Shown here piece by piece: positions 1 to 14,447 of a stretch of DNA of 45,236 nt. The notes beneath the pieces were generated by a model. That model ran no database searches and had not been told where the DNA came from. It saw only the letters and a list, made by a program, of their open reading frames with translations. The stretch is from Escherichia phage CR01, in sequence record OR061068; one strand, given 5' to 3'. A program made the position numbers and the translations under genes. How positions within the stretch are numbered: the first letter of the stretch is position 1; each line of letters starts with the position of its first letter.

Positions 1-50
1 CCGTAAAGTTCTTTGATGGCGCGTACAACGTTTGCAGTAGCTTTGTTCAT
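1..50 (-). CDS. 5' part of a 72-aa early protein gene that wraps across the window ends (continues at 45071..45236); paralog of 32971..33189
   Basis: ATG at 50..48; reverse complement reads MNKATANVVRAIKELYG, matching the N-terminus MNKATASVVSAIKEVYG of the 32971 ORF; 50 nt here plus 166 nt at the right end = 72 codons exactly. Confidence 0.6.
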   Translation of the reverse strand, partial: MNKATANVVRAIKELY

Positions 51-61
51 TTCCAAATTCC

Positions 62-115
62 TTATCTCTCGTTTTGATGTAATGAATAGTACCCTATTAT
101 ATTGGGGTGCGCAAA
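62..115 (-). promoter_or_regulatory. conserved early promoter/operator cassette, copy driving the wrap-around gene
   Basis: Reverse complement TTTGCGCACCCCAATATAATAGGGTACTATTCATTACATCAAAACGAGAGATAAGGAATTT immediately precedes the ATG; contains TATAAT, palindrome AATAG-N4-CTATT and an AAGGA ribosome-binding site; near-identical copies at 9808-9870, 43428-43495 and 32905-32970. Confidence 0.5.
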
Positions 116-386
116 CTATTTATTTACCTATTCCAGTTATTCCACCGAATTGTAAATGTTGGAATAAACTATTCGAATAGTTGACTTTTCACTAAAAATA
201 TGATAAGCTCCACCTGAGCTTGTGAAGTATGAACAAGCGACCGCGGCGCGGGCAGGTAACGGAGCCGGACGTTAAGTCCGAGTGTAGTTACGCTGACGCG
301 TTCGGAAGGGCCATACTCTATTGCTTGTGTAAAAAGTACCGGGTTTACTGAGATTACGCCGTTTCTATGTTTAAATGATAAGGACT

Positions 387-416
387 AGCGCCCCGCTTTA
401 AGGCGGGGCTTTACTT
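387..416 (+). terminator. rho-independent terminator-like hairpin
   Basis: Stem GCCCCGC / GCGGGGC with loop TTTAAG followed by a T-rich tract. Confidence 0.4.
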
Positions 417-432
417 ATCGAGAAAGGGAAAC

Positions 433-819
433 ATGAATCTTAAAGCAACTGTCGTAGCAGGAGCATGTTTCATCATCCTGGCTTACGCACACGGCATCTA
501 CCAGTACCGCGCTGGTTGGGGCGAAGGCCGCGCTAATCTCGTTTCGCAGCAACAGCAGAAAGCACAGGCTGAGTTAGCGAAGAAAACACAACGGCAGCAG
601 CAGGATGAATCAAAGGCAGCCGCCGCTGACAACGAAGGCAAGACGAAATCAGAGGTAATTACCCGTGAAGTCGTTAAGTACATTAAAACGCCTGGTCGCA
701 GCGTGTGCACTTTTGACGATGCTCGCGTCCTGCTCAAGTCCCGCGCCGTCGCCAACGCCAATTCCATCTCCGGATACGACGATGATGCAGCCACCGTGCA
801 AACTGGCCACGCCAAGTAG
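433..819 (+). CDS. i-spanin (Rz-like inner membrane spanin)
   Basis: 128 aa; N-terminal TM segment, Q/A/K-rich coiled-coil periplasmic region; contains an embedded out-of-frame lipoprotein ORF. Confidence 0.6.
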   Translation: MNLKATVVAGACFIILAYAHGIYQYRAGWGEGRANLVSQQQQKAQAELAKKTQRQQQDESKAAAADNEGKTKSEVITREVVKYIKTPGRSVCTFDDARVLLKSRAVANANSISGYDDDAATVQTGHAK

Positions 820-928
820 CGATGCTGACCAGGACTTAGCTATTGACGTTCAGAACGCCGAATGCGTGCGGCAACTGCGTCTGAAAGTGTTCATGTTGCA
901 GGACTACGTGAGGAATATTCTGGAATAG
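665..928 (+). CDS. o-spanin (Rz1-like outer membrane lipoprotein), overlapping and extending beyond Rz
   Basis: Signal peptide MKSLSTLKRLVAACALLTMLAS followed by lipobox Cys (LASC) and a Pro-rich mature region; starts in a different frame inside the i-spanin gene. Confidence 0.55.
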   Translation: MKSLSTLKRLVAACALLTMLASCSSPAPSPTPIPSPDTTMMQPPCKLATPSSDADQDLAIDVQNAECVRQLRLKVFMLQDYVRNILE

Positions 929-1009
929 TTGCCTTGCATGTTGGAATAATTTATTCTTGACATGTAAATCCGGGGGCCCGGATTCCAACGTCCAGGGGAC
1001 ATACTGACT

Positions 1010-1711
1010 ATGAATCGTTTTTTACGTTATCCGTTCCAGGAAGAAGCTGGAGCAGAAGATAAAGCCGGTGGCGGTGACGCGCCGAAAATGTTCACAGCCG
1101 AAGAAGTTCAGGCGCTGATTGAGAAAGAAGTTGCCGGGCTTAAGGCCAATCAGGAAGCATTGCTGGCGGAGAAGAAAGAAGCCGCTCGCAAAGCAAAAGA
1201 GGCTGAAGAAGAACGGCAGCGCGCACACCAGGAGGCGTTAAAAGCCGCTGGTAAGATGGACGAGTTTGAAAAGACGATTCGTAGCCAGTATGACCCGGTG
1301 TTAGCCGAGAAAGATGGTCGCATCTCCAAAATGGCAGAGCGCATCCTCGGCAGCGAACGTAAAGCGGTGTTAGGCTCTTTCGCGGGGGACTTTATTACCC
1401 CGGAAGCAGTGGACATTCTTGCGCCGTTCGTCAAGACTGAGTTCGAAGGCGATGATGTGGTTACTAAGTTTGTCGGCGCAGACGGCAACGTAATCACGAC
1501 TGACCCGGAACAGTTCCGCAAATACCTGCGCGAACACAAAGCGTTTTCGCATTTGATTAAAGCAAATGCAGCTTCCGGCGGCGGGGCTTCCGGTAGCAAA
1601 GGCGGCGGGGCCGCACCAGCGTTTAAAGACATGAGTGAAGCGGAGCGTTTAGCTCTGTATAAATCGAACCCTGCCGAATTTGAGCGGCAACTTAAAGCCC
1701 TGAGGAAATAA
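1010..1711 (+). CDS. putative capsid scaffolding protein
   Basis: 233 aa, highly charged coiled-coil (EAARKAKEAEEERQRAHQEALKAAG), immediately upstream of the major capsid gene. Confidence 0.45.
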   Translation: MNRFLRYPFQEEAGAEDKAGGGDAPKMFTAEEVQALIEKEVAGLKANQEALLAEKKEAARKAKEAEEERQRAHQEALKAAGKMDEFEKTIRSQYDPVLAEKDGRISKMAERILGSERKAVLGSFAGDFITPEAVDILAPFVKTEFEGDDVVTKFVGADGNVITTDPEQFRKYLREHKAFSHLIKANAASGGGASGSKGGGAAPAFKDMSEAERLALYKSNPAEFERQLKALRK

Positions 1712-1713
1712 TA

Positions 1714-2762
1714 ATGGCAATTACTACTATCGGCGATATCGTAACTGGCAACATCCCGGTCCTGGCGTCTTACATGACCGAGGACCCGGTAGAAAAACCG
1801 CGTTCTTCCAGTCTGGTATTCTGACCCCGACTCCATACGCTGCCGAGATTGCCCGCGGCTCGTCCAACATCGCTAACATCCCTTTCTGGAAAGCGATTGA
1901 TACTTCTATTGAGCCTAACTACTCGAACGACGTATACCAGGACATCGCAACCCCGCGTAACGTGCAGACCGGCGAGATGATGGCGCGCGTTGCATACCTG
2001 AACGAAGGCTTCGGCCAGGCAGACCTGACTGTAGAACTGACCAGTCAGAATCCGCTGCAATCCGTAGCGTCCCGTCTGGATAACTTCTGGCAGCGCCAGG
2101 CGCAACGCCGTCTGATTGCTACCGCGCTCGGTCTGTACAACGACAACGTAGCCGCTACCGATGAATACCATACGCAGAACGATATGGTTATCGACGTGTC
2201 TGCTTCTCTGGGCTTCGACGCTGGCGCATTCATCGACGCTACCCAGACTATGGGCGATGCGCTGATGGGCAACGGCGGTGAAGTGCTGGGCGCTATCGCG
2301 ATGCACAGCTTCGTTTATGCGCAGGCGCGTAAGCAGCAGCTTATCGACTTCATCAAAGATGCTGACAACGACACCCTGTTCGCCACCTACCAGGGCTACC
2401 GCGTGATTGTTGACGACAGCATGACCGTAGTTGGCTCCGGCTCGAGCCGTAAGTTCATCTCCATCATCTTCGGCAACGGCGCTATCGGTTACGGTGAAGG
2501 TAATCCGTCCAACCCGCTGGAATACGAGCGCGAAGCATCTCGCGGTAACGGCGGCGGCGTTGAAACCCTGTGGACCCGTAAGACCTGGTTGCTGCACCCA
2601 CTGGGCTACAGCTTCACCAGTGCGGTAATCACCGGCAACGGCACCGAGACTGTAGCCCGCTCTGCTTCCTGGCAGGACCTGGCGAACGCCTCCAACTGGA
2701 ACCGTGTTGTTGAACGTAAGCACGTACCTATTGCCTTCCTGGTAACTGGTGTCGGTGCTTAA
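1714..2762 (+). CDS. major capsid protein, interrupted by an apparent frameshift near the N-terminus
   Basis: ATG at 1714 reads MAITTIGDIVTGNIPVLASYMTEDPVEK then hits a stop at 1822; the -1 frame is open from ~1794 to 2762 (track ORF 1962..2762); A5 run at 1793-1797; followed by a terminator. Confidence 0.6.
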
Positions 2763-2777
2763 GGTTAAGCTATAATC

Positions 2778-2802
2778 GAGAGGGACTTCGGTCCCTCTTT
2801 TC
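2778..2802 (+). terminator. rho-independent terminator after the capsid gene
   Basis: GAGAGGGAC-TTCG-GTCCCTCTTTTC hairpin plus T-run. Confidence 0.6.
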
Positions 2803-2823
2803 ATTTACTAAGAGGATTCCTAA

Positions 2824-3165
2824 ATGGCAGACGTATTGAAACGACGCACCACCGGCGTCTCCGCTGACGCCCCGGGTGCCAAGATTGACATGGTGACTAT
2901 TTCTCCTGCGTCTTTCTCGTCCGCGCTGGCGGCTACTACCTCCGTTACCGCAGGCGAAACCATGACACTGACCGTAACCGTAACTGGCGGTCTGGAGCCG
3001 TATTCCTACCAGTGGTATAAGAACAACAACGCCATCGCCGGGGCTACCGAGGCCACCTATGCTAAAGCGTCGACCACTACCGCCGATTCAGGCACGTATA
3101 AAGTGGTTGTTCACGATGCGTATGGTAATATTATCTCCAGCAGCACCGTAGCAACTGTGTCTTAA
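2824..3165 (+). CDS. Ig-like domain protein (candidate capsid decoration protein)
   Basis: 113 aa; motifs TLTVTVTGG, YQWYKNNNAI, DSGTYKVVV typical of Ig-like I-set/Big domains; sits directly after the capsid gene. Confidence 0.5.
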   Translation: MADVLKRRTTGVSADAPGAKIDMVTISPASFSSALAATTSVTAGETMTLTVTVTGGLEPYSYQWYKNNNAIAGATEATYAKASTTTADSGTYKVVVHDAYGNIISSSTVATVS

Positions 3166-3201
3166 TACAACGGCCCTTCGGGGCCGTAATAAGGAAAGGT
3201 C

Positions 3202-3381
3202 ATGGCAGATAATTATGTAATCCGCGAAAAGTACACCCACGTTGACGTTGTTGACGGTCAGGTAATGCCTGTTCGCGGTGTGGTAGAAGTGGACGAACTG
3301 GTTGCGACTCAACCGGACAACGAAGAAGCGCACAACAACGGCGGTGGTACTAAGCGTCGTCGCCGTAAGTCAGAGGAATAG
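3202..3381 (+). CDS. hypothetical small protein (59 aa), basic C-terminus
   Basis: ATG 3202 with ribosome-binding site AAGGAAAGG; ends GGGTKRRRRKSEE; below the ORF-track length cutoff. Confidence 0.35.
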   Translation: MADNYVIREKYTHVDVVDGQVMPVRGVVEVDELVATQPDNEEAHNNGGGTKRRRRKSEE

Positions 3382-3384
3382 TAC

Positions 3385-3537
3385 ATGAATATCGTGCGCC
3401 GCTTGCTCTGTACCCACAAATACCGAACGGTAAGAGTCGCGTATGGTGACGAGATAATTGGTAGAAATTACAAGCGATATTGCCAAGAGTGCACAAAATG
3501 CGGCGCAATCAGATACGTGGGTGGTGATAAATGTTAA
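3385..3537 (+). CDS. hypothetical small Cys-rich protein (50 aa, zinc-ribbon-like)
   Basis: CTHK...CQECTKC...C arrangement; start overlaps the preceding stop region. Confidence 0.3.
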   Translation: MNIVRRLLCTHKYRTVRVAYGDEIIGRNYKRYCQECTKCGAIRYVGGDKC

Positions 3538-4039
3538 TTGTAGAAACAGGTCAAATTGTAGATGGGGCCGATTCGTACATCTCGCTAGCTGACGCCCGCG
3601 CGTTAGCGGCTAATTATGGCCTTGAGTTACCTGCCGACGACCCCGCGGCGGAAGTAGCTCTGCGCAACGGTGCTACTTATGTCGGGCTTGCAGAACCACA
3701 GATGTGCGGCCGCCGTGTGTCGGCCGAACAGTCTCTTGCATACCCTCGCACGGGGTAACATTGAATGGCTTCCCTGTAGCTAACAACACCATTCCGAAAC
3801 AGGTGATTCTTGCGCAGGTAATCGCAGCCGCTACATATGGCTCCGGCACAGAAGTGCGGGCTAACTCGGACGGTCGCTCCGTGCAGACTGAGCGTGTCGA
3901 GGGTGCGGTCACAGTGACGTACTTCAACAACGGCAGCAGTGGCGCTACGACCGCGATTACCGCCGCTGACGACGCCTTACGCCCGTTACTGTGTGGTGGT
4001 CTTAACAATGGCTTCTCATTTAATGTGTACCGGGGTTAA
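3531..4039 (+). CDS. head-tail connector-like protein, frameshifted at G-run 3752-3755
   Basis: Track ORFs 3531..3758 and 3704..4039 join in one frame if one G is added to GGGG; N-terminus ISLADARALAANYGLELPADDPAAEV resembles gp6-like head-tail connector proteins. Confidence 0.4.
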
Positions 4040-4041
4040 AA

Positions 4042-4656
4042 ATGGCGAAGACTAAATCAGAGATGTTCACCCTCATCGGCGCGAATCTCCCCGATAACAC
4101 CAACGGTGCCATCACACCCGCGAAGCTACGCGAGGTAATGACGCAGATGGCGGACTCACCTATTTACGCCACTCCCGGTGTTAAAGAGGTTGAAGTTCTC
4201 CGCGCAGCGTCGACCGTGATACAAGTGCCCACCGCAACGAACACGGCGTTGCAGTTAACTTTTGGAGCTGCACAGGGTAGCGCATCCGACCCTGTAATGA
4301 TTAATGCCGCGGGGCTGGTTACGTTCAACACCGCGGGTAACTATGCCGTTCGCATCAAGTTACAGGCTGGGCGCACGGGGGCTAGCGGAACGTCTATCCT
4401 GTTATCACGCCTTCTTCTGAACGGCGCTCAGTACGGCTCGCCCGCAGCTACTAAACTGGTAAGCGCGGATACCACAATCCCGATTGAGTCTCGCGTCGTT
4501 ATTAACCCGACCGCAGGCCAGACGTTTGCCGTTCAGATTATGCGGGATAGCGCCGGGAGTAACTTCGGCGGCGTATACCCGCAAGCGGCTACGGTAACTG
4601 CATGGGGCACAGCACCATCTGCGCTACTGGTTATTTCGAGACTGGAGGCTGCGTAA
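4042..4656 (+). CDS. hypothetical virion structural protein
   Basis: 204 aa ORF in the head-tail gene block; Ala/Thr/Gly-rich. Confidence 0.35.
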   Translation: MAKTKSEMFTLIGANLPDNTNGAITPAKLREVMTQMADSPIYATPGVKEVEVLRAASTVIQVPTATNTALQLTFGAAQGSASDPVMINAAGLVTFNTAGNYAVRIKLQAGRTGASGTSILLSRLLLNGAQYGSPAATKLVSADTTIPIESRVVINPTAGQTFAVQIMRDSAGSNFGGVYPQAATVTAWGTAPSALLVISRLEAA

Positions 4657-4787
4657 TGCGAAAAATAATTAATATGTGGATTAACTCTGATTTTTTGTGG
4701 AAGTACGAATTTTTGGTATCAGTGTTTGCGCTGGTATCAACAACAGCTCTAATTATATTTTTAGCGGTTTGCGGGGAGTCAACATGA
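4656..4787 (+). CDS. small AT-rich membrane protein ORF (43 aa) inside the structural module
   Basis: ATG overlaps the upstream stop (TAATG) and its own stop overlaps the next ATG (ATGA); one hydrophobic helix FLVSVFALVSTTALIIFLAV; local AT content visibly higher than the flanks. Confidence 0.35.
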   Translation: MRKIINMWINSDFLWKYEFLVSVFALVSTTALIIFLAVCGEST

Positions 4788-5143
4788 GCACCGCTTTCAG
4801 CAAACGTATGCAGGGCGTGGGTACACGCCTGCTAACCAAATTCGGCAGCACAGTATCTCTGGTTCGCGCTGGCTCGAAAGTGTGGGATGAAGTTCTCGGT
4901 GAATGCGTCTGGTCCGCCGACGAAGTGTTGCCTTTGAAGGCCGTTCCGGTTCCGGTAAACGCGGGGCTGGTTAACGGTGCGACGATTCAGGCTGACGACA
5001 TGATTGTTAAAGCGGATTACAGCGTCGTTCCGAAGATGGAAGACAAGGTGCAATTCGGCGGCGAGCAATGGTCTGTCGTAGCTATCGAGAAGAAGATGGT
5101 TAACGATGATGTCGTGGCCTACTTTATCCAGGTGAGAAAATGA
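4784..5143 (+). CDS. putative head closure / head-tail joining protein
   Basis: 119 aa from ATG 4784 (the track ORF extends spuriously upstream to 4697); position between connector and neck genes. Confidence 0.4.
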   Translation: MSTAFSKRMQGVGTRLLTKFGSTVSLVRAGSKVWDEVLGECVWSADEVLPLKAVPVPVNAGLVNGATIQADDMIVKADYSVVPKMEDKVQFGGEQWSVVAIEKKMVNDDVVAYFIQVRK

Positions 5144-5640
5144 GTTTCGCGCTTGATGTCTCTAAGTTCGTCGAAAAGGCGAAGAAGAATCCCGAGAAGG
5201 TGATGCGCCAGGTGTCTATCAAGCTGTTTTCCGCTATCATAAAGGCGAGTCCGGTAGATACTGGTCGCTTTCGTATGAACTGGATGGCCTCTGGCGGTAC
5301 TCCTGCTTCCGGCACAAGTCAAGGTACTGACCCTAGCGGAGCTAACGCGATAGGCGCTATGGTTTCTACTGTGTCAGGCTTACCCGACTGGAGCGAGTTC
5401 ACCCTGACAAATAACCTGCCGTATGCGGAAGTTATAGAGTTTGGAGGTTACGCTACCGGCTTCCATGGCCCTAAGCGCCCTTCTAACTTAGGCTCTAAAT
5501 TTGTTGGCCCATTGAGGCCGAAAGCGCCCAGCAGAACAACCACAGACGGATATTCCCTTCAGGCTCCGCAAGGTGTTGTCCGGGTTAACGTTCAGCGATT
5601 CAATAAACTGCTCGAAGAAGAAGCGAGGAAGTATAAATAA
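5140..5640 (+). CDS. HK97 gp10-like neck / tail completion protein
   Basis: 166 aa containing a VDTGRFRMNW motif (DTGxLR-type motif of the HK97 gp10 family). Confidence 0.45.
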   Translation: MSFALDVSKFVEKAKKNPEKVMRQVSIKLFSAIIKASPVDTGRFRMNWMASGGTPASGTSQGTDPSGANAIGAMVSTVSGLPDWSEFTLTNNLPYAEVIEFGGYATGFHGPKRPSNLGSKFVGPLRPKAPSRTTTDGYSLQAPQGVVRVNVQRFNKLLEEEARKYK

Positions 5641-6053
5641 TGGGCTACTTTGAGGACTTAACCAAAGCGTTTGATGTGCCGCTGGTAGCCTTCGGAACAA
5701 CCAACGGCATCAAGGTGGCGCTTGAAAACATCGACGCGCCGACGTCAACCGATACACCGTATCTGGCGAGTTACATGTTGCTGGCAGATACGGAACAGGC
5801 TGACTTATTCTTCACCGAGCAACGTTCTGGTATTTATCAGGTCGACATTAACTACGCATCGGTGAAAGGTAGCGCGCCAATCAATAAAATGGCAGACTTA
5901 CTTAACACGGCGTTTAAAGCAGGTAAGTCATTTTCACGTAACGACATCTGCGCCGAGGTTCAATCGGTTAGCCTGGGGCCACTGATTGTAGAAAACGGAT
6001 GGGCCAAAAGACCATTGTCAATTAACTTTATCGCATTCACCAAGAGGCTGTGA
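5640..6053 (+). CDS. putative tail terminator protein
   Basis: 137 aa ORF immediately upstream of the major tail gene; start overlaps the preceding stop. Confidence 0.35.
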   Translation: MGYFEDLTKAFDVPLVAFGTTNGIKVALENIDAPTSTDTPYLASYMLLADTEQADLFFTEQRSGIYQVDINYASVKGSAPINKMADLLNTAFKAGKSFSRNDICAEVQSVSLGPLIVENGWAKRPLSINFIAFTKRL

Positions 6054-7222
6054 ATATGGCTACAACTCCTTTTAAGGGCGCGAATACCGCGCAATTCTAT
6101 GTGGCGGAAGTCACCCCGGGCGTAACACCGACTAACCCGGTCTGGTCACCGTTGCGTAACACTGGCGGTGTTCCTGCTATCACCCGCGACACGCTGACCT
6201 CCAACGAACTGGACGGCAGCCGTGAAACTACATCCATCCGCACCGGTAACAAACAGGTTAGCGGTGAATACGCGATCGAGCTTAGCTCGAAAAGCCAGGA
6301 TGACTGGCTGGCTGGTGCTTTAGGCTCTACGTGGCAATCCGGTGTTTCCCTGTCCAGTCTGTCGATTACCGTCGCACCCGCAGGCAAGACGTTCACACGC
6401 GCTACCGGCAGTTTTATCACTGACGGAGTTGGGGTAGGCGACCTGATTGCATTTACCGATTTAACAGGCGATAACGCAAAACCATTTATTGTTACTGCAG
6501 TAACGGCTACGGTTGTTACTGGTGCTGGCATCCAACACACCCTGACCACCGAGACAAAAACTAGTAAGGCTAAAACCGGCGACACGCTGGAAACCGGTAA
6601 CACGTGTAAGACGTTCTCTATCCTTACCTGGTACAAAGGCCAGTGCGGCGGTACTAACGCGTACACGTTAACCAAAGGCGTGGAAGTTTCTGGTTTTACC
6701 ATCGAACAGGCTGTTAACGCGATGGTAACTGGCAGCTTCCCATTCATCGGTCGCAGTCAGGAGATTCTCACTACGCCGCCGACCGGTTCCAACTTCTCAT
6801 CTGTTACTTTTGGTGATGAGCCGTTCTCCTCGGTTGACGTTTCTGTGTTCGACGGTTCTACGCCGTTGCGTTGTGATAGCCTGACCATCACCAACGATAA
6901 CAGCGCGTCGGCGCAGTTCGAACTCGGCAACACTAACGTAGCGTTTGTGGAGCGTAGCCGCGCGGCTAACACCTTCTCCATCTCCGGTAAGCTGTACGAC
7001 ATGGCGATGATTCAGAAGTTTATCAACGAACAGCAGGTAGAGATTAACTCTATTCTGGCGGGGGTAAACGGGGCTATGTCTTTCAGTTTAAAACGCGCAG
7101 AGCTTACGGCGGTCACACCAGAGATTGGCGGACCCGAGTCAATCACTCAGTCCATTGAAGGCCAGGCTACCGGCAACCAATACCAGTCGTCTATTGTCAT
7201 CCAGCGTATCACCTACCCATAA
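6050..7222 (+). CDS. putative major tail (tube) protein
   Basis: 390 aa Thr/Gly/Ser-rich protein positioned before the tail chaperone and tape measure genes; followed by a strong terminator. Confidence 0.5.
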   Translation: MNMATTPFKGANTAQFYVAEVTPGVTPTNPVWSPLRNTGGVPAITRDTLTSNELDGSRETTSIRTGNKQVSGEYAIELSSKSQDDWLAGALGSTWQSGVSLSSLSITVAPAGKTFTRATGSFITDGVGVGDLIAFTDLTGDNAKPFIVTAVTATVVTGAGIQHTLTTETKTSKAKTGDTLETGNTCKTFSILTWYKGQCGGTNAYTLTKGVEVSGFTIEQAVNAMVTGSFPFIGRSQEILTTPPTGSNFSSVTFGDEPFSSVDVSVFDGSTPLRCDSLTITNDNSASAQFELGNTNVAFVERSRAANTFSISGKLYDMAMIQKFINEQQVEINSILAGVNGAMSFSLKRAELTAVTPEIGGPESITQSIEGQATGNQYQSSIVIQRITYP

Positions 7223-7225
7223 AAC

Positions 7226-7252
7226 TAAGGCCCCGAAAGGGCCTTTTTCTTA
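7226..7252. terminator. bidirectional rho-independent terminator
   Basis: AAGGCCCCGAAAGGGCCTTTTTC: GC hairpin flanked by A-run upstream and T-run downstream; lies between convergent genes 6050..7222 (+) and 7250..7804 (-). Confidence 0.65.
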
Positions 7253-7804
7253 CAAACCTAATTTTAAAGCAATGTCTATAACGTTCGATTTAACATCACC
7301 TGGTATGATGTAGGTATCGTAATCTTTTACACCATCAACGCCATACAGATAACCACGGCTGTCCCCCTCAAATGTATAGCCTTCTCGGTGCAAGCGAACG
7401 ATTCTTACATCATGACCCGCGGCGACGATAGGGGCTACTTCACTGGCGAATCCACCGTCGGACACTACAAAAACTTCGTTGCCGTCTGGCAAGTTTTCAG
7501 CAAGATACTTACCGAAATAATCATCACCGAATACCGGTTTAATGAATTGCTCAGAAACGGCAATCATGAACTGACGACGGGACAACCCATTAAGAAAACC
7601 CTCTGGCTTTTCTTTCCGTGCCCGGTCGTCGTAGCCGTCGAGAAATTCGCGGTAAGCATCCGGGCCTAACGCTGCCAAAGCAATATCGAACATTGGATTC
7701 TTGAAACTGGTAGTTCCTTTCGCAAAGCCCATTTCTACCAGCGCCATAGCAAGTGTGTCTTTCCCGCAACCCGCCGGACCATTAAGAATAATTACCTTAG
7801 CCAT
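7250..7804 (-). CDS. P-loop kinase, dNMP kinase-like (T4 gp1-like) or polynucleotide kinase-like
   Basis: 184 aa; Walker A GPAGCGKDT at residues 8-16; downstream RRQFMIAV and VFVVSDGG...VRIVRLHREG segments resemble the T4 gp1 family as recalled; start overlaps the upstream stop (TAATG). Confidence 0.5.
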   Translation of the reverse strand: MAKVIILNGPAGCGKDTLAMALVEMGFAKGTTSFKNPMFDIALAALGPDAYREFLDGYDDRARKEKPEGFLNGLSRRQFMIAVSEQFIKPVFGDDYFGKYLAENLPDGNEVFVVSDGGFASEVAPIVAAGHDVRIVRLHREGYTFEGDSRGYLYGVDGVKDYDTYIIPGDVKSNVIDIALKLGL

Positions 7805-8289
7805 TATTTATCACTCCCGTGTGATTTTAAGTGTGTAGAGTTACCGTTACAGTCGTATCCAGTGACAGCGTGTGTGGTTATGCCGAGGCCTCGGAAATGC
7901 TTAATTACCGCCGGAGAATCATCGAATGCACACAAGATTCTCTCCAGCCCGATAGCACGCAACACCTCTTCTTTAATTGCGATGTCTTTTCTGTTGTCGT
8001 GTTTGCTGCGCATGATTAGCTGATAAAATTCGACGCGGTGGCGCTGCAACCACATTCTGGTTTCTTTTTCTGCATCATCACTACGGCCCGTTAAAATAAT
8101 AACGGCGTAGCGACGATTGAGGGCGTTACACAGTTCGATGTTATCTCTAATTGGTTCATCATCTTTGCACGCCATGTTAAAGGGCTTCCACGCCCACGTT
8201 TCGTTGTAGTTATCTTTCGGCAGCAGGTGCAAACGATGCGTACCATCAGCCAATGTCCCATCTAAATCGAAAATTACAATATCTTTCAT
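7804..8289 (-). CDS. HAD-superfamily phosphatase, T4 Pnk 3'-phosphatase-like
   Basis: 161 aa; motif I FDLDGTLA (DxDGT), motif II ILTGRSDD, RKD lysine motif, motif IV AFDDSP; order and spacing match the phosphatase domain of T4 polynucleotide kinase as recalled. Confidence 0.55.
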   Translation of the reverse strand: MKDIVIFDLDGTLADGTHRLHLLPKDNYNETWAWKPFNMACKDDEPIRDNIELCNALNRRYAVIILTGRSDDAEKETRMWLQRHRVEFYQLIMRSKHDNRKDIAIKEEVLRAIGLERILCAFDDSPAVIKHFRGLGITTHAVTGYDCNGNSTHLKSHGSDK

Positions 8290-9035
8290 CCCAGCATCTC
8301 CGGTGAAATAGTTAAACGTGCGACCTCGCCGTATTCGGCGCTATAAGTAATTACATTTGCACTACGGCCTGACATCCATCCGCCGCGGGAGGCGTAGGCA
8401 TCTTTAGCCGCCAGGGTGCGGTGTTGCTCAACAATCATGTTACGGCTTTCTACAATCTTTTGATGGTGGAGATGCCCGACATGTGCGTAACTGTACTCGC
8501 TTTCGCCAAATGCTTTTCTGAACTTAGCTATCATAATTGGCTCGACCACCTCAAACCGGCATTTATGCCCGTGTGTAAAGAACAGCGTCGTTTTGCCGTG
8601 TTGCACCATCTTGTAAACATCCGGCGACGTATCGACGAACACACGAGGCTCGTTGTCGTATAGCGTACTGAACATCTCAGCCAACCAAATCATACCTGAT
8701 TCGTCATGGTTCCCTTGCACGATAAGCAGGCGAACATTTTTATGTTTAACCAGAGCCATATCGACAACACGGCGGACCATACGAATCATGTAGCGGACCA
8801 GTTTCTGATAGCGCGTATCCGCGTCAAGAACATGACCACTCGCTGGCGTAACGGCATCCAGACTATCAAAGTGCGCGAAGTCACCAAGAAGGTTAATAAC
8901 CCCTGTTCCCGCATCTGGCGCTTTCTGAAACGCAGCATCAAACCACCGAGAGAACAGGTCTTCTGCAATCTTCATATCCCAGTCATCGCCGCTCTCGTCG
9001 GCCCATGCCAGCATACCGAGATGGAAATCAGACAC
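8286..9035 (-). CDS. calcineurin-like metallophosphoesterase (Mre11/SbcD-like), probably the C-terminal part of a fusion with the upstream HTH ORF
   Basis: Motifs SDFHLG (DxH), GDFAHFD, GNHDE, THGH, GHLHH in canonical order; annotated start is GTG with no beta-strand before the DxH motif, while the upstream frame is open. Confidence 0.6.
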   Translation of the reverse strand: MSDFHLGMLAWADESGDDWDMKIAEDLFSRWFDAAFQKAPDAGTGVINLLGDFAHFDSLDAVTPASGHVLDADTRYQKLVRYMIRMVRRVVDMALVKHKNVRLLIVQGNHDESGMIWLAEMFSTLYDNEPRVFVDTSPDVYKMVQHGKTTLFFTHGHKCRFEVVEPIMIAKFRKAFGESEYSYAHVGHLHHQKIVESRNMIVEQHRTLAAKDAYASRGGWMSGRSANVITYSAEYGEVARLTISPEMLG

Positions 9036-9412
9036 AGTGTAAAGGTTGAGTAGCTTGTCGTCTCGTTTGGTGCGAACGGCTTTAACAGGAGCAACGGGGT
9101 AATCTCCGACTTCATGCCCTCGATTACGGCCTTCATTAACTCGACCTGACGTTCCGCATCGGTGTCGGTCTTAACCCATTGCAGTTTAGTGTTGCCTAAC
9201 TCGTCCACAAGTGACGATGTTCCTTTAATCTTGTAGCCATCTGGCACAAGGTGGCTAACGTCCCGCCCGTGGCCTACGCCTTTCTTAGCCAGCTTCGCTT
9301 TACGGATGCGAATAACGCGGTCTGAGATGCCGTATTTACGGGCGATGTCGATATTCTTCATACCGGCGTTCAATTCTTCCTGTAACTGTTCGTCGGTTAT
9401 TTTCTTCCGGGC
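8972..9412 (-). CDS. HTH DNA-binding protein (N-terminal part of a probable HTH-metallophosphoesterase fusion)
   Basis: ATG 9412 with ribosome-binding site GAGGAAG; HTH-like DEQLQEELNAGMKNIDIARKYGISDRVIRIRKAK; the C-terminal 20 residues look non-native; adding one C at C-run ~9096-9099 joins this frame to the phosphoesterase. Confidence 0.45.
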   Translation of the reverse strand, partial: ARKKITDEQLQEELNAGMKNIDIARKYGISDRVIRIRKAKLAKKGVGHGRDVSHLVPDGYKIKGTSSLVDELGNTKLQWVKTDTDAERQVELMKAVIEGMKSEITPLLLLKPFAPNETTSYSTFTLCLISISVCWHGPTRAAMTGI

Positions 9413-9480
9413 CATGCTTACTTCCTCGTGTTTAGGATTTGTCCTATTTAACCACAGTGCATTCATTTAAATAAAGGCGA

Positions 9481-9807
9481 CTATTTACTTTCCGCGCCTA
9501 TCGCCCACCCGGTCATCACCATTTGCAGGCGGGTGGCTGTCAGTAGGCTGTAAAACGCGTCTCCGTTTTTCTCTACCGAACGTATTACAGAGTATGTTAC
9601 GGCTTGCGGAGGCAGGCCCGATTTACCAACCCCTACGGCAGCCTCACACTCGCGAACGGTAGAGTCCTTAAATGCCTTTACAATAGTAGGGTCGGCTTTA
9701 TCGAGCACACCAGAAGTCATAAGAACAGATTCACTAAATACCTGTTCGCACGGGGACCCAAAAGCAGCAAAAGACATAAACCCCAGAGCTAATACTAATT
9801 TACGCAT
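9481..9807 (-). CDS. small secreted/periplasmic protein (108 aa), first gene of the moron operon
   Basis: N-terminal signal peptide MRKLVLALGFMSFAAFG; gene sits immediately downstream of a conserved early promoter cassette. Confidence 0.5.
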   Translation of the reverse strand: MRKLVLALGFMSFAAFGSPCEQVFSESVLMTSGVLDKADPTIVKAFKDSTVRECEAAVGVGKSGLPPQAVTYSVIRSVEKNGDAFYSLLTATRLQMVMTGWAIGAESK

Positions 9808-9870
9808 AATTATTTCCTCAGTAAGTTACAGGTGAATAGTACCCTATTATATTGGGGTGCGCAAGTAGTG
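9808..9870 (-). promoter_or_regulatory. conserved early promoter/operator cassette driving the moron operon
   Basis: Reverse complement CTTGCGCACCCCAATATAATAGGGTACTATTCACC...GAGGAAATAATT-ATG; near-identical to the copies at 62-115 and 43428-43495. Confidence 0.5.
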
Positions 9871-9971
9871 TGTTAGAATAAGTTTGCGCCTAGTGTCGCA
9901 CACGAAAAGCGGGTGGTTCCCGTCTGGCGCGTCAACCTTAACTTGTAACCTCTTAACCAAAGGATTAAATA

Positions 9972-10388
9972 ATGAAACTCTCTGATTTTTATTTTGCGGA
10001 CCGCCATGCTGCTGGCACTAAAATGCCCATCCTTCTGCCTAGCGGTAAAGATTCCGGTGAATGGTTGCAAGTCATCGGCCCTGATTGTGACGCTGGCGTT
10101 CGTGCTGGCCGTGCCTATACAACGGCAATTCGACGCCTTACGGAAGAACTTGCGCCGTTAGATAAAGAGTGCGAGGCACTGAATAACTGGGCGCGCTATA
10201 ACGATGAGAAGGGCTGGCGGGTGATGGACTTGAACAAGCAGCTTGCCGTTGAAATCGTCACCGGTTGGTCGTTCGACGAACCTTTCAGCAAAGAGGCACT
10301 GGCTAACCTGTTCGACCAGTACAGTGGGCTGGCGGAGGCCGTAGTTAAGCATCACACCGACAGTCGCGAGAAACTCTCGGAAAAGTAA
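9972..10388 (+). CDS. tail assembly chaperone (lambda G-like)
   Basis: 138 aa ORF immediately upstream of the tape measure gene; ends at a GAAAAG slip site with an open -1 frame downstream. Confidence 0.55.
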   Translation: MKLSDFYFADRHAAGTKMPILLPSGKDSGEWLQVIGPDCDAGVRAGRAYTTAIRRLTEELAPLDKECEALNNWARYNDEKGWRVMDLNKQLAVEIVTGWSFDEPFSKEALANLFDQYSGLAEAVVKHHTDSREKLSEK

Positions 10389-10750
10389 AAGCGCTGTATG
10401 AATTTGCGCAATGGTGCTTTGTCGACCGCCACAAACGTAAGCAATTCGACGACATAGCGGCAGGCCACCAGGCGGCTTTGATTGCAATGGGCGTGATTAA
10501 AGAACCGCAGATGAAAGAAGCGACGGGGCCTGAATGCCCCGTTTCTCTTATCGACGTGTTCGAGAAATACCGCGCCATTAAATTCCTACAGCGCGAAACA
10601 GATGATACTATCGTCATAATCCCGCGCGATGCGCTCAAATGGCAAGATTTGGTAGCGTTTCGTGATGTCGCCGGTTACGGCATAAGTTTGTTCGAAGCCG
10701 AGGTTATCATGGGCTTAGACGGAATATTTGAGGGCAGAGAAGATGGCTGA
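10379..10750 (+). CDS. T-extension of the tail assembly chaperone (G-T product via -1 frameshift)
   Basis: The -1 frame is open from 10349 through 10750 with no start codon until 10478; overlaps the G stop; conserved G/GT arrangement before tape measure genes. Confidence 0.45.
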   Translation, partial: GKVKALYEFAQWCFVDRHKRKQFDDIAAGHQAALIAMGVIKEPQMKEATGPECPVSLIDVFEKYRAIKFLQRETDDTIVIIPRDALKWQDLVAFRDVAGYGISLFEAEVIMGLDGIFEGREDG

Positions 10751-13054
10751 TACGGCTTCCCTAATTGCCAGAGTAAAAACAGAAGGCGCCGACGTAGCCG
10801 CCAAACAGCTTGACGCTATGGCGGCATCCGCAGACCGGGCGGATACCGCGGTAAACAAGCTGACTCCGGATGTCAATAAAGTTAACACAGCTACCTCTAA
10901 AGCAGCCTCTGACGGTTTCGCTAAGTTCCGTAACGCCGCCGGGCAGGTGGGCTTCCAGGTACAGGACATGGTTGTCCAGTTGCAGTCCGGCACGTCTGCA
11001 TTCGTAGCAATCGGGCAACAAGGCTCGCAGCTTGCAGGTGCTTTCGGCCCCGGTGGCGCGGTGCTCGGGGCTGTAATTGCTCTTGCGTCTGCTGTTGGCG
11101 GCGTCCTGTACAAATCGCTAACCGAAGCCGAAGGTAGTTCAAAAGACCTCGAAACCGCACAGAAACAGTTAAAAGATACTTTCCAGCAAACGGCATCTGG
11201 CTCTCTCGAACTGACAGACGGCCTCATCCAGCTTACCCAAATAAGCCGAGAAGCGGCAGAGACTCAGCTTGCTCTGGCTAAGGCTAACGCGGACCTTATC
11301 GCGCAGCAAACAGCTAAAGCTGTTCGTGAGGACGCAGAATCATGGGAAACGTGGAAAGCCTCCACGGCGTCGGCGATTAGCCAGTACGATGCACTGGTCT
11401 CTAAGGGTGCGGATGTAGGCGACACGTTAGAAAAACTAGGCGGCACTTACGAGGGTAACATCGTAGGCGTCAACATGCTGGCGCAGAATATCGCGGAGCT
11501 TAGCAGTAAGTTCGGGGTTAACCGTGACCAGGCGCTGGAGATGATAGCGGCGCAGAGCGCGTTTAACAAAGAGCCAACCGCGGAGAATGCCCGCCGCATC
11601 GCCGATGTGTTTACCGACTGGCTGGGTAACACAAAACAGTTGAACCCGGAGCTTATCCGCCTCACCGATAATGCCAACAAGAACGCCACGGCACTGGAAA
11701 ACGCAGAGAAGTCAGCAAACGCGGCGGCAGAGGCCCAAAAGAATCTTGGTCGTAACGTCAACTCAACCACGCAGAGATTCCAGGAACAGAACGAAGCTAT
11801 CGTCAAGAATCAGCAAATTGCCATCTTAAGCGACCGTGAGCGCATCAGGGCGCAAGCTGAGATGGATAAACAAGCGTTCGCTAAACGTGAAGCTGTCACC
11901 AAAGAACAGATCGCCGCGTATAATGCCGCTCGTGACACGGAAGCACAGCAAGACATCGCCCGCATCGACGCTACCGAAAAAGCGAAGGCAGACCGTGAGG
12001 CTAAATCGAACGAGAAACGTCTGGCGGCGCAGGCCAAACGTGAAGAAACGGCGGCACAACGCCAGAAGAAAGCTGCGGAAGATTTCCTCGCTACGGTTGA
12101 CCGTACAACCGGAGATGAAATTTCTCGCATCACGGCGGCCGAAGAGCAGAAACTGGCGAAACTTGAAGAGTTCAACCGCGCCGGAACGATAAGCCAGCAG
12201 CAGTACGAAAACGCCAAAACTCAGATTATGCTCACAGCTGAGCAGGCCAGACAGGAAGAACTGGATAAGAAAAGAAAAGAGCAGCAGGAAAAGCAGCAGA
12301 AAGGCGAGGACTTCATGGCGCAGATTATGGGTCAGAATGCTGCCGAGCTTGAGCTTCTTGACATCCAGGAACAGCAAAAGCTGGCGGTCGCGGATAAGTA
12401 CCGAGAACAGGGGCTTATTAGCGAGAAGCAGTATCAGGCCGCGCTTAACGCCATCAACGAGCAGTACGCCACGAAGCGTGCCGACGCAACGGCAACCGCC
12501 TTCGGTAACATGGCTTCAAACATCGGTTCGGCTTTGGGGAGGCTTCCGGCGCGTACAAGGCATTCGCTATCGTACAGGCCACTATAGCCACATACACAGC
12601 AGCTATTGAGGCTTATAAGTCAACGGCCGCTATCCCTGTAGTTGGCCCGTTCCTGGCCCCCGTAGCCGCTGCCGCTGCCGTTGGGGCGGGTATGGCGCAG
12701 GTTTCCGCTATCCGGTCCGCGCGTGAACAGGGCGGACAGTTATCCGCAGGGCAGGCTTCCACCATCGCTGAACGCGGTAAACCCGAAGTTATCATGCCCG
12801 CTGGCGCATCGCGTGTGCGCACCGCGCAGCAGATGAAAGAAATTATGGGGCAAAACGGGTCTTCTTCCGGCCCGTCTAATGTTACTATCGTAAACAACAC
12901 GAGTTCTCAAATCGGCAACGTATCCACTGAGCAAGATGATGAAGGCCGTCTACGCATCATCATCGAAGAGCAAGTGGCCGCCTCTTTGCAGAACAGTAAC
13001 AGTAAGATTAGCAAGGCCCGCAAGGCCACAAGAAACGCGCCGGGGTTTAAATAA
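10743..13054 (+). CDS. tail tape measure protein, frameshifted at G-run ~12536-12539
   Basis: Long Ala/Gln/Glu-rich coiled-coil ORF 10728..12587; the C-terminal frame 12692..13054 joins if one G is added to GGGG; fused reading gives a hydrophobic Ala/Gly-rich segment. Confidence 0.7.
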
Positions 13055-14444: not shown

Positions 14445-14447
14445 TTT

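What the first reader, a model, noticed from the sequence alone, without database searches (positions are those of the whole stretch)
62..115. Conserved ~60 bp promoter-leader cassette with AATAG-N4-CTATT palindrome repeated across the genome
A near-identical cassette (TTGCRC-ACCCCAA-TATAATAGG-TACTATTCA...AAACGAGAGATAAGGAATTT-ATG) precedes the wrap-around gene (62-115), the moron operon (9808-9870), the Cys-rich gene (43428-43495, all minus-oriented) and gene 32971 (32905-32970, plus-oriented). Shorter versions carrying the same palindrome, sometimes inside a consensus sigma70 promoter (TTGACA-N17-TATAGT), occur at 22534-22562, 26150-26182, 29430-29460, 29480-29500, 34641-34663 and 35005-35071. 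Conservation extends through the 5' leader and ribosome-binding site, so regulation may also act on the RNA. The palindrome looks like an operator for a dimeric regulator; the XRE protein (29526..29741) or AlpA-like protein (32303..32506) are candidates.
Basis: seen in the sequence. Interest (0 to 1): 0.6.

Follow-up and report, generated by a model that had tools for sequence, protein, structure and literature searches.

The report
Shared operator inside phage promoters
A 14-base palindrome (AATAG-N4-CTATT) sits inside the core of almost every promoter of this virulent E. coli phage and is most likely the docking site of the phage's own Cro-like repressor: a real regulatory feature of a familiar kind, and one already noticed (but misread) in the literature.

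Summary
AATAG-N4-CTATT occurs 9 times exactly against 0.03 expected, plus 3 intergenic one-mismatch copies. Every copy lies between genes or at a gene end. The window is a complete Kagunavirus-like phage (Guernseyvirinae, 98% identical to phage M01).

The palindrome is embedded in host sigma-70-type promoters. In eight main promoters it fills the spacer (-35, N4-5, AATAG-N4-CTAT|TATRKT). In the "cassettes" it also overlaps the -10 of a second, opposite promoter (TTGCRC-N17-TACTAT). The near-identical cassettes are therefore two-way promoter modules. Their better sigma-70 match faces away from the small minus-strand genes, towards the head, tail and replication operons.

Across 30-44 distinct relatives per site, the arms are 99% conserved, the central four bases 75% and the flanks 91%.

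The best candidate reader is the 71-aa 434-Cro-like XRE protein (29526-29741). Its homologues in other phage lineages sit next to lineage-specific palindromes, several with the same 5-N4-5 geometry. The AlpA-like protein is disfavoured: two relatives lack it yet keep perfect palindromes.

The leader shows no RNA structure. The motif was published as seven "phage RNA polymerase promoters", but no phage polymerase was found. Binding and repression are inferred, not shown.

The parts
85..98 (.). Operator palindrome AATAGTACCCTATT (module 1)
   Evidence: Exact match; the same 14-mer occurs at 9835 and 43462.
74..103 (+). Outward promoter TTGATG-N18-TATATT with the palindrome in its spacer. It faces the spanin, scaffold and head genes (433 onward).
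   Evidence: Promoter scan; CTATTATRKT motif; gene functions.
86..114 (-). Inward promoter TTGCGC (114-109), N17, TACTAT (91-86). The right arm of the palindrome forms the -10. It would drive the wrap-around gene (45068..50).
   Evidence: Read from the sequence. Below the scan threshold (-35 matches 3 of 6). Supported by constant spacing to AACGAGAG and by conservation of the -35-like hexamer across genera.
51..73 (-). Unstructured purine-rich leader: AACGAGAG (73-66), Shine-Dalgarno AAGGA (63-59), start codon at 50-48
   Evidence: minimum free energy 0 kcal/mol.
9825..9864 (.). Two-way module 2: palindrome 9835-9848; plus-strand promoter GTTACA-N17-TATATT (9825-9853) towards the tail genes; minus-strand promoter TTGCGC-N17-TACTAT (9864-9836) towards the operon 9807..7250
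43451..43491 (.). Two-way module 3: palindrome 43462-43475; plus-strand promoter TTGATG-N18-TATATT (43451-43480) towards the head-morphogenesis and Hoc-like genes; minus-strand promoter TTGCAG-N17-TACTAT (43491-43463) towards the Cys-rich gene 43427..43146
   Evidence: The full unit is present in only 5 related records.
32908..32947 (.). Two-way module 4 (early/replication divergence): palindrome 32924-32937; plus-strand promoter TTGCAC-N17-TACTAT (32908-32936) towards the early genes from 32971; minus-strand promoter TCGATA-N17-TATGTT (32947-32919) towards the AlpA-like and primase-helicase operon
   Evidence: The whole cassette is 95-100% conserved in 38 distinct sequences.
35010..35039 (+). 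One-way promoter TTGCAC-N17-TACTAT with palindrome 35026-35039. There is no opposite -10 here and no divergent gene.
22535..22563 (-). Promoter TTGACG-N17-TATAGT with palindrome 22540-22553 in the spacer
26154..26182 (-). Promoter TTGACA-N17-TATATT with palindrome 26159-26172 in the spacer. It precedes the Gp2.5-like SSB gene.
29433..29461 (-). Promoter TTGACA-N17-TATAGT with palindrome 29438-29451 in the spacer, divergent from the XRE gene
   Evidence: The intergenic region is almost invariant in 38 sequences.
29482..29495 (.). Imperfect operator AATATGGTACTATT just upstream of the XRE gene, downstream of a candidate promoter TTCACT-N16-TAAAAT (29450-29477)
29526..29741 (+). XRE gene: 71-aa 434-Cro-like helix-turn-helix protein, the proposed operator reader. 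Terminator-like hairpin at 29730-29750.
   Evidence: Pfam HTH_3 E 2e-12; 434 Cro E 8e-6; recognition helix the same in all but one (L028) of about 40 Kagunavirus loci.
37961..37994 (+). Promoter TTGACT-N17-TATATT with imperfect palindrome ACTAGTTGACTATT (37961-37974) over the -35 and a half-site CTATT joined to the -10. It heads 38028 onward (small genes, terminase, portal).
34643..34656 (.). Orphan palindrome AATAGTTTACTATT with no recognisable promoter, just before a hairpin
32303..32506 (-).
   Evidence: Replaced by unrelated genes in L016 and L030.
43118..43137 (.). Two-way terminator closing the Cys-rich unit. Equivalent hairpins at 45043-45063 and 7227-7245 close the other two reverse-oriented units.

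Best explanation
AATAG-N4-CTATT is a 14-bp operator built into the core of the phage's host-sigma-70 promoters.

In eight main promoters the operator fills the spacer: -35, N4-5, AATAG-N4-CTAT|TATRKT. Together these head all the long operons on both strands. At four divergent junctions the same palindrome also overlaps the -10 (TACTAT) of a weaker promoter on the other strand (TTGCRC-N17-TACTAT). One bound dimer would therefore cover two back-to-back promoters whose inferred starts lie about 30 bp apart.

The near-identical cassettes are such two-way modules. Three of them sit at the promoter end of reverse-oriented gene units, each closed at the other end by a two-way terminator. The outward promoter would restart transcription of the interrupted head or tail operon.

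The most likely reader is the 71-aa 434-Cro-like XRE protein (29526-29741), acting as a dimer that blocks RNA polymerase. This would give genome-wide negative feedback or shut-off, including on its own gene.

Shown: motif enrichment, placement in promoter-like sequence, the conservation pattern, and the family of the protein. Inferred: that these sequences are active promoters, that XRE binds, and that binding represses.
For: - Enrichment: 9 exact sites against 0.03 expected, and the top palindrome in the genome.
- Placement: CTATTATRKT occurs 8 times against 0.2 expected, each time oriented towards a long operon. The best sigma-70 matches coincide with palindrome sites. Six promoters annotated in the Jerseyvirus PVP-SE2 record coincide with palindrome sites.
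- Operator-like conservation: in alignments selected by homology rather than by motif (30-44 distinct sequences, 5 sites), the arms are 99% conserved, the centre 75% and the flanks 91%. The left arm is conserved although it lies in a spacer.
- The palindrome is separable from promoter function. Cornellvirus keeps TTGACA/TATAGT at orthologous promoters but has a degenerate palindrome.
- XRE matches 434 Cro over residues 6-68 (E 8e-6). 434 Cro binds 14-bp operators with contacted outer bases and an uncontacted centre (my own knowledge).
- The XRE gene sits beside one perfect and one imperfect operator. Its recognition helix is the same in all but one of about 40 Kagunavirus loci.
- XRE homologues in other lineages lie next to, or share the locus with, lineage-specific palindromes. 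L060 has AATAC-N4-GTATT, a symmetric G>C / C>G change; L082 and L086 have TGTAG-N4-CTACA next to the gene; L080 has GTATA-N6-TATAC three times around the gene; L071 has TTAGC-N2-GCTAA in three promoter spacers, 3-6 kb from the gene.
- AACGAGAG starts 12-13 nt after the inferred -10 in both architectures, which supports the -10 assignments.
Against: - There are no binding or transcript-start data.
- Kagunavirus and Jerseyvirus share the palindrome, yet their XRE recognition helices differ (QGAINQL against QSLITHL). Cornellvirus has a Jersey-like helix (QSAISHL) but lacks a clean palindrome.
- The IMG/VR loci were fetched through XRE, so its constant presence there is partly circular.
- An operator in nearly all promoters, the structural ones included, is hard to reconcile with simple early shut-off.
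- The inward promoters have a weak -35 (3 of 6) and fall below the scan threshold.
- The only RNA-seq study of a relative puts XRE in the 'middle' class and the AlpA-like gene in the 'early' class.
Confidence: 0.5

Rival explanations
1. The palindrome is a loading site for a processive antiterminator or other polymerase-modifying factor, as with lambda Q at its QBE or AlpA at its ABE. The AlpA-like HTH_17 protein (32303-32506) would bind between -35 and -10 and ride with RNA polymerase through the many internal terminators.
For: [quoted passage not shown]
- A terminator-like hairpin at 390-409 separates the promoters at 74-103 and 181-209 from the first structural gene.
- 23 terminators are predicted in a relative.
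- The AlpA-like gene is among four early genes in K1B4 RNA-seq.
- A conserved AACGAG lies in the initial transcribed region.
Against: - The AlpA-like gene is replaced by unrelated genes in L016 and L030, which keep perfect palindromes.
- Its recognition helix varies (VTRRTLNNW, VTRQTINNW, VSTMTLNRW) among genomes with the same palindrome.
- It has no significant match to solved AlpA structures.
- The ABE is not palindromic.
- AACGAG lacks the final T of a -10-like pause element.
- No terminator directly follows most of these promoters.
Confidence: 0.08
2. The palindrome is an operator, but its reader is another protein: an unannotated small phage protein or a host transcription factor.
For: - The XRE recognition helix differs between the two genera that share the palindrome.
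- Many small phage ORFs have no annotation.
- The Kagunavirus and Jerseyvirus hosts (E. coli, Salmonella) are close relatives.
Against: - Cornellvirus also infects Salmonella but lacks the palindrome.
- Of the ORFs shared by Kagunavirus and Jerseyvirus and absent from Cornellvirus, only the AlpA-like protein, the one scanned that has a DNA-binding domain, is already disfavoured.
- I know of no E. coli factor with this consensus (own knowledge, not searched).
- The exact promoter-plus-palindrome pattern occurs almost only in 40-45 kb Guernseyvirinae contigs.
Confidence: 0.22
3. No dedicated regulator exists. The palindrome is a by-product of promoter sequence (an extended -10, CTATTATAnT, mirrored where promoters are two-way) spread by duplication of promoter cassettes.
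For: - The right arm is fused to the -10 in eight promoters.
- The cassettes have clearly been duplicated and recombined.
- Four sites are two-way junctions where symmetry could serve two -10 elements.
Against: - The left arm is 89-100% conserved in the one-way promoters, whereas the adjacent spacer bases are 47-100% and mostly lower.
- An orphan palindrome at 34643 has no promoter.
- Lineage L060 has a symmetric double change, AATAC..GTATT, that keeps the dyad.
- Cornellvirus promoters persist without the dyad.
Confidence: 0.1
4. These are promoters for a phage-encoded RNA polymerase, as stated for fBC-Eco01 (consensus tgAATAGTa-ccTATTat-T).
For: PHIRE reported seven such sites, and the authors assigned them to a phage polymerase (PMC9825357).
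Against: - No RNA polymerase gene is annotated in Bas73, PVP-SE2, PSDA-2, Shemara or Otaku.
- The long window ORFs that were scanned or have annotated counterparts in relatives match tail, replication or packaging proteins, none a polymerase.
- The sites carry canonical sigma-70 hexamers.
Confidence: 0.01

Closest known systems
Phage 434 (and P22/lambda) Cro-operator system
   Same: A roughly 70-aa helix-turn-helix protein homologous to 434 Cro. A 14-bp dyad operator with conserved outer bases and a variable centre. Operators overlap core promoters, one pair in a divergent region next to the regulator's own gene.
   Different: No cI partner or integrase was annotated in relatives, and these phages are reported as virulent, so there is no lysogeny switch. 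Operators are single and spread over about 12 promoters across the genome, not a tandem OR1-3 array. The arm sequence differs (AATAG against ACAA). Binding is untested.
Lambda Q / P. aeruginosa AlpA antiterminator loading elements (QBE, ABE)
   Same: A DNA element placed between the -35 and -10 of sigma-70 promoters. The phage carries a small AlpA-like helix-turn-helix gene and many internal terminators.
   Different: The element here is a perfect dyad. No Q family member was identified, and the AlpA-like protein has no significant match to solved AlpA structures. The AlpA-like gene is dispensable for keeping the palindrome. There is no canonical sigma-dependent pause element.
Morons (self-contained promoter-gene-terminator accessory units in phage genomes)
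   Same: Reverse-oriented gene units bounded by a promoter cassette and a terminator. Their presence varies: the Cys-rich unit is in 5 of about 500 relatives, and the slot at 45068..50 holds different genes in M01 and Bas73.
   Different: The promoter cassette is two-way and carries the genome-wide operator, so it would also restart the interrupted structural operon. One unit is a four-gene nucleotide-metabolism and repair operon rather than a host-fitness gene.
PHIRE 'phage promoters' reported for Kagunavirus genomes (fBC-Eco01, Golestan)
   Same: For fBC-Eco01 it is the same motif, with published consensus tgAATAGTa-ccTATTat-T. Both papers report seven sites per genome.
   Different: The fBC-Eco01 paper assigns them to a phage RNA polymerase that does not appear to exist. 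Neither passage read mentions the dyad, its position inside sigma-70 promoters, the two-way arrangement or a candidate binding protein. The Golestan motif sequence was not seen.

Membership tests
Sigma-70-type bacterial promoter | -35 and -10 hexamers (at least 9 of 12 matches, A2 and T6 in the -10) separated by 16-18 bp | tested here: met
   22563-22535, 26182-26154, 29461-29433, 37966-37994, 74-103, 9825-9853 and 43451-43480 were found by the scan. 32947-32919 (TCGATA-N17-TATGTT) and the inward TTGCRC-N17-TACTAT promoters were read by eye; the latter match only 3 of 6 in the -35.
Sigma-70-type bacterial promoter | A transcription start about 7 nt downstream of the -10 | not testable with these tools
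   No 5'-end data are available. The only RNA-seq paper on a relative gives gene-level timing.
Cro/CI-type (434-like) repressor-operator system | An HTH_3/XRE DNA-binding protein homologous to Cro or CI | tested here: met
   Pfam HTH_3 E 2.3e-12; 434 Cro and 434 repressor E 8e-6 to 1.5e-5 over residues 6-68.
Cro/CI-type (434-like) repressor-operator system | A dyad-symmetric operator of about 14-17 bp overlapping core promoter elements, with conserved arms and a variable centre | tested here: met
Cro/CI-type (434-like) repressor-operator system | Part of a lysis-lysogeny switch: a cI partner, tandem operators between divergent cI and cro, and an integration module | tested here: not met
   No cI or integrase in the annotations of relatives. 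Operators are single and dispersed. This places it as 'works like' rather than as a member of a lambdoid immunity region.
Cro/CI-type (434-like) repressor-operator system | Specific binding of the protein to the operator | not testable with these tools
   The only support is comparative: homologues with lineage-specific palindromes next to the gene or in the same locus.
Q/AlpA-type antiterminator loading element | An element between -35 and -10 of the target promoter | tested here: met
Q/AlpA-type antiterminator loading element | A cognate Q or AlpA family protein that co-occurs with the element | tested here: not met
   The HTH_17 protein has no significant PDB match to AlpA (best E 0.12-0.48). 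It is absent from L016 and L030, which keep the palindromes, and its helix is variable.
Q/AlpA-type antiterminator loading element | A -10-like sigma-dependent pause element in the initial transcribed region, with a terminator downstream | tested here: inconclusive
   AACGAG lies at about +5 but lacks the terminal T. A terminator-like hairpin lies at 390-409 only for the first structural operon.
Phage-RNA-polymerase promoter (claim in PMC9825357) | The phage encodes its own RNA polymerase | tested here: not met
   None in five annotated relatives. None among the long window ORFs that were scanned or have annotated counterparts; not every long ORF was scanned with Pfam.
MerR-type spacer-binding activator site | A dyad in an over-long (19-20 bp) spacer | tested here: not met
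   The spacers are 17-18 bp.
Moron-type accessory unit | Own promoter and terminator, with presence varying among close relatives | tested here: met
   Terminators at 43118-43137, 45043-45063 and 7227-7245. The Cys-rich unit is in 5 records, while the cassette alone is in about 45 more. The gene in the slot differs in M01 and Bas73.
Structured cis-regulatory RNA leader | A stable or conserved RNA fold, or an Rfam family | tested here: not met
   Leaders have a minimum free energy of 0 kcal/mol, no better than shuffles. No Rfam match at gathering threshold.

The most novel reading that the evidence does not exclude
The dyad is not a simple repressor site. It is the docking point at which a phage factor converts host RNA polymerase at every major promoter of a virulent siphophage (Q/AlpA-like processive antitermination, or a switch that picks one direction of each two-way module). 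A single 14-bp element would then set both the direction and the terminator read-through of essentially all phage transcription.
Probability: 0.1. Interest if true: 0.7.

Novelty: new member of a known kind. Interest (0 to 1): 0.4.

Why it matters
Kagunavirus and Jerseyvirus phages are widely isolated for therapy and biocontrol and have been proposed as models for synthetic biology. Their transcription programme is essentially unstudied, and at least one published note on this motif assigns it to a phage polymerase for which no gene was found.

If a single Cro-like protein reads one operator placed in nearly every promoter, that gives a compact handle on these phages: one protein and one 14-mer to tune or switch all phage gene expression. 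It would also explain how reverse-oriented accessory units can be inserted into the late operons without silencing them, because each brings a two-way promoter.

It is not a new principle. Operators in promoter cores and Cro-like repressors are textbook material.

Tried and rejected
The first phyletic comparison favoured it: present in Kagunavirus and Jerseyvirus, absent from Cornellvirus, like the palindrome. It was rejected after Otaku showed palindrome relics without it, L016 and L030 showed perfect palindromes without it, and its recognition helix proved variable.
- The 63-aa protein 22310-22501 (97% identical across genera). Its conservation matches that of the neighbouring helicase (98%), probably a shared mosaic block, and it has no DNA-binding signature.
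- TATAAT, 7 bp after TTGCRC, as the cassette -10. No -35-like hexamer lies 16-18 bp upstream at any site.
- AACGAGR as a genome-wide motif: 13 against 11.5 expected. It is meaningful only by position.
- RNA-level regulation: no fold and no Rfam match.
- Searching for the promoter-plus-palindrome pattern outside this subfamily. 78 IMG/VR stretches matched, nearly all from 40-45 kb contigs. Four single hits on contigs of other sizes are consistent with chance.
- Literature searches for functional work on Guernseyvirinae promoters or repressors found only genome reports and one gene-level RNA-seq paper.
- XRE homologues in a temperate Yersinia phage and in Serratia phage Otaku gave no AATAG dyad next to the gene.
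- No structure prediction was run. Only single-chain models were available, which would not address DNA specificity.

Full report
**What the window is.** The 45,236-bp window is a complete genome of a Kagunavirus-like siphophage (Guernseyvirinae). It is 98% identical to Escherichia phage M01 over the first 20 kb and about 90% identical to BASEL phages Bas70-76. No RNA polymerase, cI repressor or integrase is annotated in Bas73 or in the Jerseyvirus PVP-SE2. The long window ORFs that were scanned, or that have annotated counterparts in relatives, match tail, replication or packaging proteins.

**Checking the observation.**
- AATAG-N4-CTATT occurs exactly nine times, at 85, 9835, 22540, 26159, 29438, 32924, 34643, 35026 and 43462. 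The expectation is 0.03, and none of 100 shuffles reaches nine.
- It is by far the commonest 5-Nx-5 palindrome in the window, and also in Bas73.
- With one mismatch there are 14 sites against 1.0 expected.
- All exact copies lie between genes or at gene ends.

**Anatomy: two promoter architectures share the dyad.**
- Spacer type. The sites at 22563-22535, 26182-26154 and 29461-29433 (all minus strand) read TTGACA/G-N4-AATAG-N4-CTAT|TATAGT or TATATT. The palindrome lies in a 17-bp spacer and its last T starts the -10. These are the best sigma-70 matches in 20-40 kb (11, 11 and 10 of 12).
- Cassette type, inward promoter. The cassettes read TTGCRC-N10-AATAGnnTACTATT. TTGCRC and TACTAT are 17 bp apart, so the right arm forms the -10.
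- Cassette type, outward promoter. The other strand of the same cassettes has the spacer-type layout. The scan finds TTGATG-N18-TATATT at 74-103 and 43451-43480 and GTTACA-N17-TATATT at 9825-9853. I read TCGATA-N17-TATGTT at 32947-32919 by eye.
- The composite CTATTATRKT occurs eight times against 0.2 expected. Each copy points towards a long operon: plus strand at 94, 9844, 37985 and 43471, and minus strand at 22535, 26154, 29433 and 32919.
- The plus-strand promoters precede identified structural genes. 74-103 precedes the spanin, scaffold and head genes. 9825-9853 precedes the tail chaperone and tape-measure genes. 43451-43480 precedes the head-morphogenesis and Hoc-like genes. 37966-37994 precedes the terminase and portal genes.

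The cassettes are therefore two-way modules whose inferred starts lie about 30 bp apart, with one dyad spanning both promoter cores. Three observations support the weaker inward promoters:
- Site 35026 has the same TTGCAC-N17-TACTAT layout but no opposite -10, and no divergent gene lies there.
- The -35-like hexamer is kept across genera (TTGACG or TTGCAG in Jerseyvirus).
- AACGAGAG begins 12-13 nt after the inferred -10 in both architectures.

**Why the cassettes are so alike.**
- The wrap-around gene (45068..50, minus strand, 72 aa) with its promoter is an 82% nucleotide / 85% protein copy of the early gene 32971-33189. Its promoter and leader are 92% identical over 78 bp to those of the Cys-rich gene.
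- Three reverse-oriented units share one plan: a two-way terminator (7227-7245, 43118-43137, 45043-45063), then minus-strand gene(s), then a two-way cassette.
- The Cys-rich unit occurs whole in only 5 related records, while its cassette part matches about 45 more.
- M01 and Bas73 carry a different gene in the wrap-around slot.
- The 'moron operon' encodes a signal-peptide protein, an exonuclease (split in this window), a polynucleotide kinase and a dNMP kinase.
- The leaders fold to 0 kcal/mol, and the window has no Rfam match. I see no basis for RNA-level control.

**Is the dyad a protein site?**
- I aligned five promoter regions from relatives chosen by homology rather than by motif (30-44 distinct sequences each). 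The arms are 99% conserved, the central four bases 75% and the flanks, which include the -35 and -10, 91%.
- In the one-way promoters the left arm is 89-100% conserved, although it lies in a spacer that sigma-70 does not read. The four bases between it and the -35 range from 47% to 100% and are mostly lower.
- Jerseyvirus keeps the dyad at orthologous promoters (3 exact plus 7 one-mismatch sites, most of them at promoter-like positions). Six promoters annotated in that record coincide with these sites.
- Cornellvirus (Shemara, PSDA-2) keeps TTGACA/TATAGT at orthologous positions, but the dyad is degenerate (ATTAG-N4-GTATT) and is not enriched.
- The dyad is therefore separable from promoter function and specific to certain lineages, as expected for an operator.
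- The exact promoter-plus-dyad pattern in IMG/VR is found almost only on 40-45 kb contigs of this subfamily.

**Which protein reads it?**
- The XRE protein (29526-29741) is an HTH_3 protein (E 2e-12). It matches 434 Cro and 434 repressor over residues 6-68 (E about 1e-5). From my own knowledge, 434 operators are 14-bp dyads with contacted outer bases and an uncontacted centre, which is the pattern seen here.
- The gene forms its own unit between a perfect dyad (29438), an imperfect one (29482) and a terminator-like hairpin (29730-29750). That intergenic region is almost invariant in 38 distinct sequences.
- I fetched 80 IMG/VR loci using an XRE alignment. The dyad is enriched only in Kagunavirus-type loci (helix GVSQGAINQLALG in all but L028) and Jerseyvirus-type loci (GVSQSLITHLATG in all but L055).
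- Other XRE lineages carry their own palindromes in the same locus. L060 has AATAC-N4-GTATT, a symmetric G>C and C>G change. L082 and L086 have TGTAG-N4-CTACA at -69 of the gene, with two more just downstream in L086. L080 has GTATA-N6-TATAC three times around the gene. L071 has TTAGC-N2-GCTAA in three promoter spacers, 3-6 kb from the gene.
- Against XRE: the helix differs between the two genera that share the dyad, and Cornellvirus has a Jersey-like helix without a clean dyad. The only dyad difference I found is the flanking base, which is T in all exact Jerseyvirus sites and G or T in Kagunavirus.
- The loci were selected through XRE, so its universal presence there is partly circular.

**The AlpA-like protein.** This HTH_17 protein (32303-32506) looked attractive at first. 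It is absent from Cornellvirus, and its HTH region is identical between the window and the Jerseyvirus PVP-SE2. Four results count against it:
- Contigs L016 and L030 replace it with unrelated genes yet keep perfect dyads.
- Its recognition helix varies among Kagunavirus alleles.
- Otaku has dyad relics without it.
- It has no significant match to solved AlpA structures.

**Mechanism, stated with its limits.** The most likely reading is that an XRE dimer binds the dyad and blocks sigma-70 polymerase. At two-way modules one dimer would cover both promoters. The result would be genome-wide negative feedback that includes the XRE gene itself.
- Shown: enrichment, placement in promoter-like sequence, the conservation pattern and the protein family.
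- Inferred: promoter activity, binding and the direction of the effect.
- The main rival by position is a Q/AlpA-type loading site, since QBE and ABE also lie between -35 and -10 (PMC7969949). A terminator-like hairpin at 390-409 does precede the first structural gene. However, no cognate factor survives the tests above.
- The K1B4 RNA-seq paper, combined with its gene table, places the AlpA-like gene among four early genes and XRE in the middle class. That fits a feedback role for XRE but is gene-level data of limited resolution.

**Comparison with what is known.** The motif itself is published. PHIRE found seven sites in fBC-Eco01 with the consensus tgAATAGTa-ccTATTat-T, and the authors assigned them to a phage RNA polymerase (PMC9825357). 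Golestan also lists seven PHIRE promoters. The gene content seen here contradicts that assignment. I found no functional study of promoters or repressors in this subfamily within the searchable library.

**Verdict.** This is a real, strongly non-random regulatory element of a familiar kind: a Cro-type operator inside host-type promoters. It has two less usual features. It appears at nearly every promoter of a phage reported as virulent, and it forms part of two-way promoter cassettes that bound reverse-oriented accessory units. Interest is moderate.

Noticed in passing
window 161-175 and 943-957 (also 128-146): A second, unrelated conserved dyad, GGAATAA-N2-TATTC (6 hits at up to 2 mismatches against 0.86 expected). 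At 943-957 it abuts a TTGAC hexamer directly (958-963, with no recognisable -10); at 161-175 the hexamer lies 5 nt away (TTGACT-N17-TAAGCT at 181-209). The two copies flank the spanin genes and precede the scaffold gene. A GAATA-N3-TATTC core is also present in Bas73 and in Cornellvirus-type genomes that lack the AATAG dyad. It may be a late-promoter or activator site.
   Followed up: partly
window 390-409 (+): A strong terminator-like hairpin (8-bp stem, 7 GC pairs) lies between the promoters at 74-103 and 181-209 and the first structural gene at 433. A small conserved ORF (229-351) sits in between. The layout recalls the lambda PR'-tR' arrangement.
   Followed up: no
window 45068..45236 + 1..50 (-) versus 32971-33189 (+): Dispersed duplication of a whole promoter-plus-gene unit: 291 bp at 82% nucleotide identity, proteins 85% identical (72 aa, PHROG 7673 'internal head protein'). 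One copy sits in the early region and one is reverse-oriented among the head genes.
   Followed up: yes
window 43118-43495: The Cys-rich gene unit (two-way terminator, gene 43146-43427, two-way cassette) lies between the portal and head-morphogenesis genes. It is found whole in only 5 related phage records and is absent from Bas73.
   Followed up: yes
window 8286-9466; 29758-32014; 40787-43112; 1714-2762: Several genes that are single ORFs in relatives are split here: the exonuclease, the primase-helicase, the terminase/portal region and the major capsid gene. The closest record, M01, is fragmented in the same way. Frameshifts from sequencing error are likely.
   Followed up: partly
window 26105-26119 (-), just downstream of the promoter at 26182-26154: Hairpin CCGGG-CAGCT-CCCGG at the start of the leader of the Gp2.5-like SSB gene, conserved in Jerseyvirus, Cornellvirus and Otaku. 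It has no U-run, and its folding energy is not exceptional (z 0.3). It may be a 5' stabiliser or an autoregulatory site.
   Followed up: partly
loci L016 (3627-4209) and L030 (12559-13144): In two Kagunavirus contigs the AlpA-like gene slot upstream of the primase-helicase gene is occupied by a 149-aa protein and a 47-aa Cys-rich (CxxC...CxxC) protein. This suggests interchangeable alleles of a function linked to the replication module.
   Followed up: partly
window 34643-34656: An orphan perfect dyad with no promoter hexamers, just upstream of hairpin TACGCTGCT-ACAC-AGCAGCGTA. In Jerseyvirus the order is reversed: the hairpin with a T-run comes first, then a degenerate dyad.
   Followed up: partly
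window 20396-21820 and 22310-22501: The helicase and the small gene upstream of it are 97-98% identical to the Jerseyvirus PVP-SE2 proteins, as close as or closer than to the Kagunavirus Bas73 (96-97%). This points to a recently exchanged mosaic block between genera.
   Followed up: no
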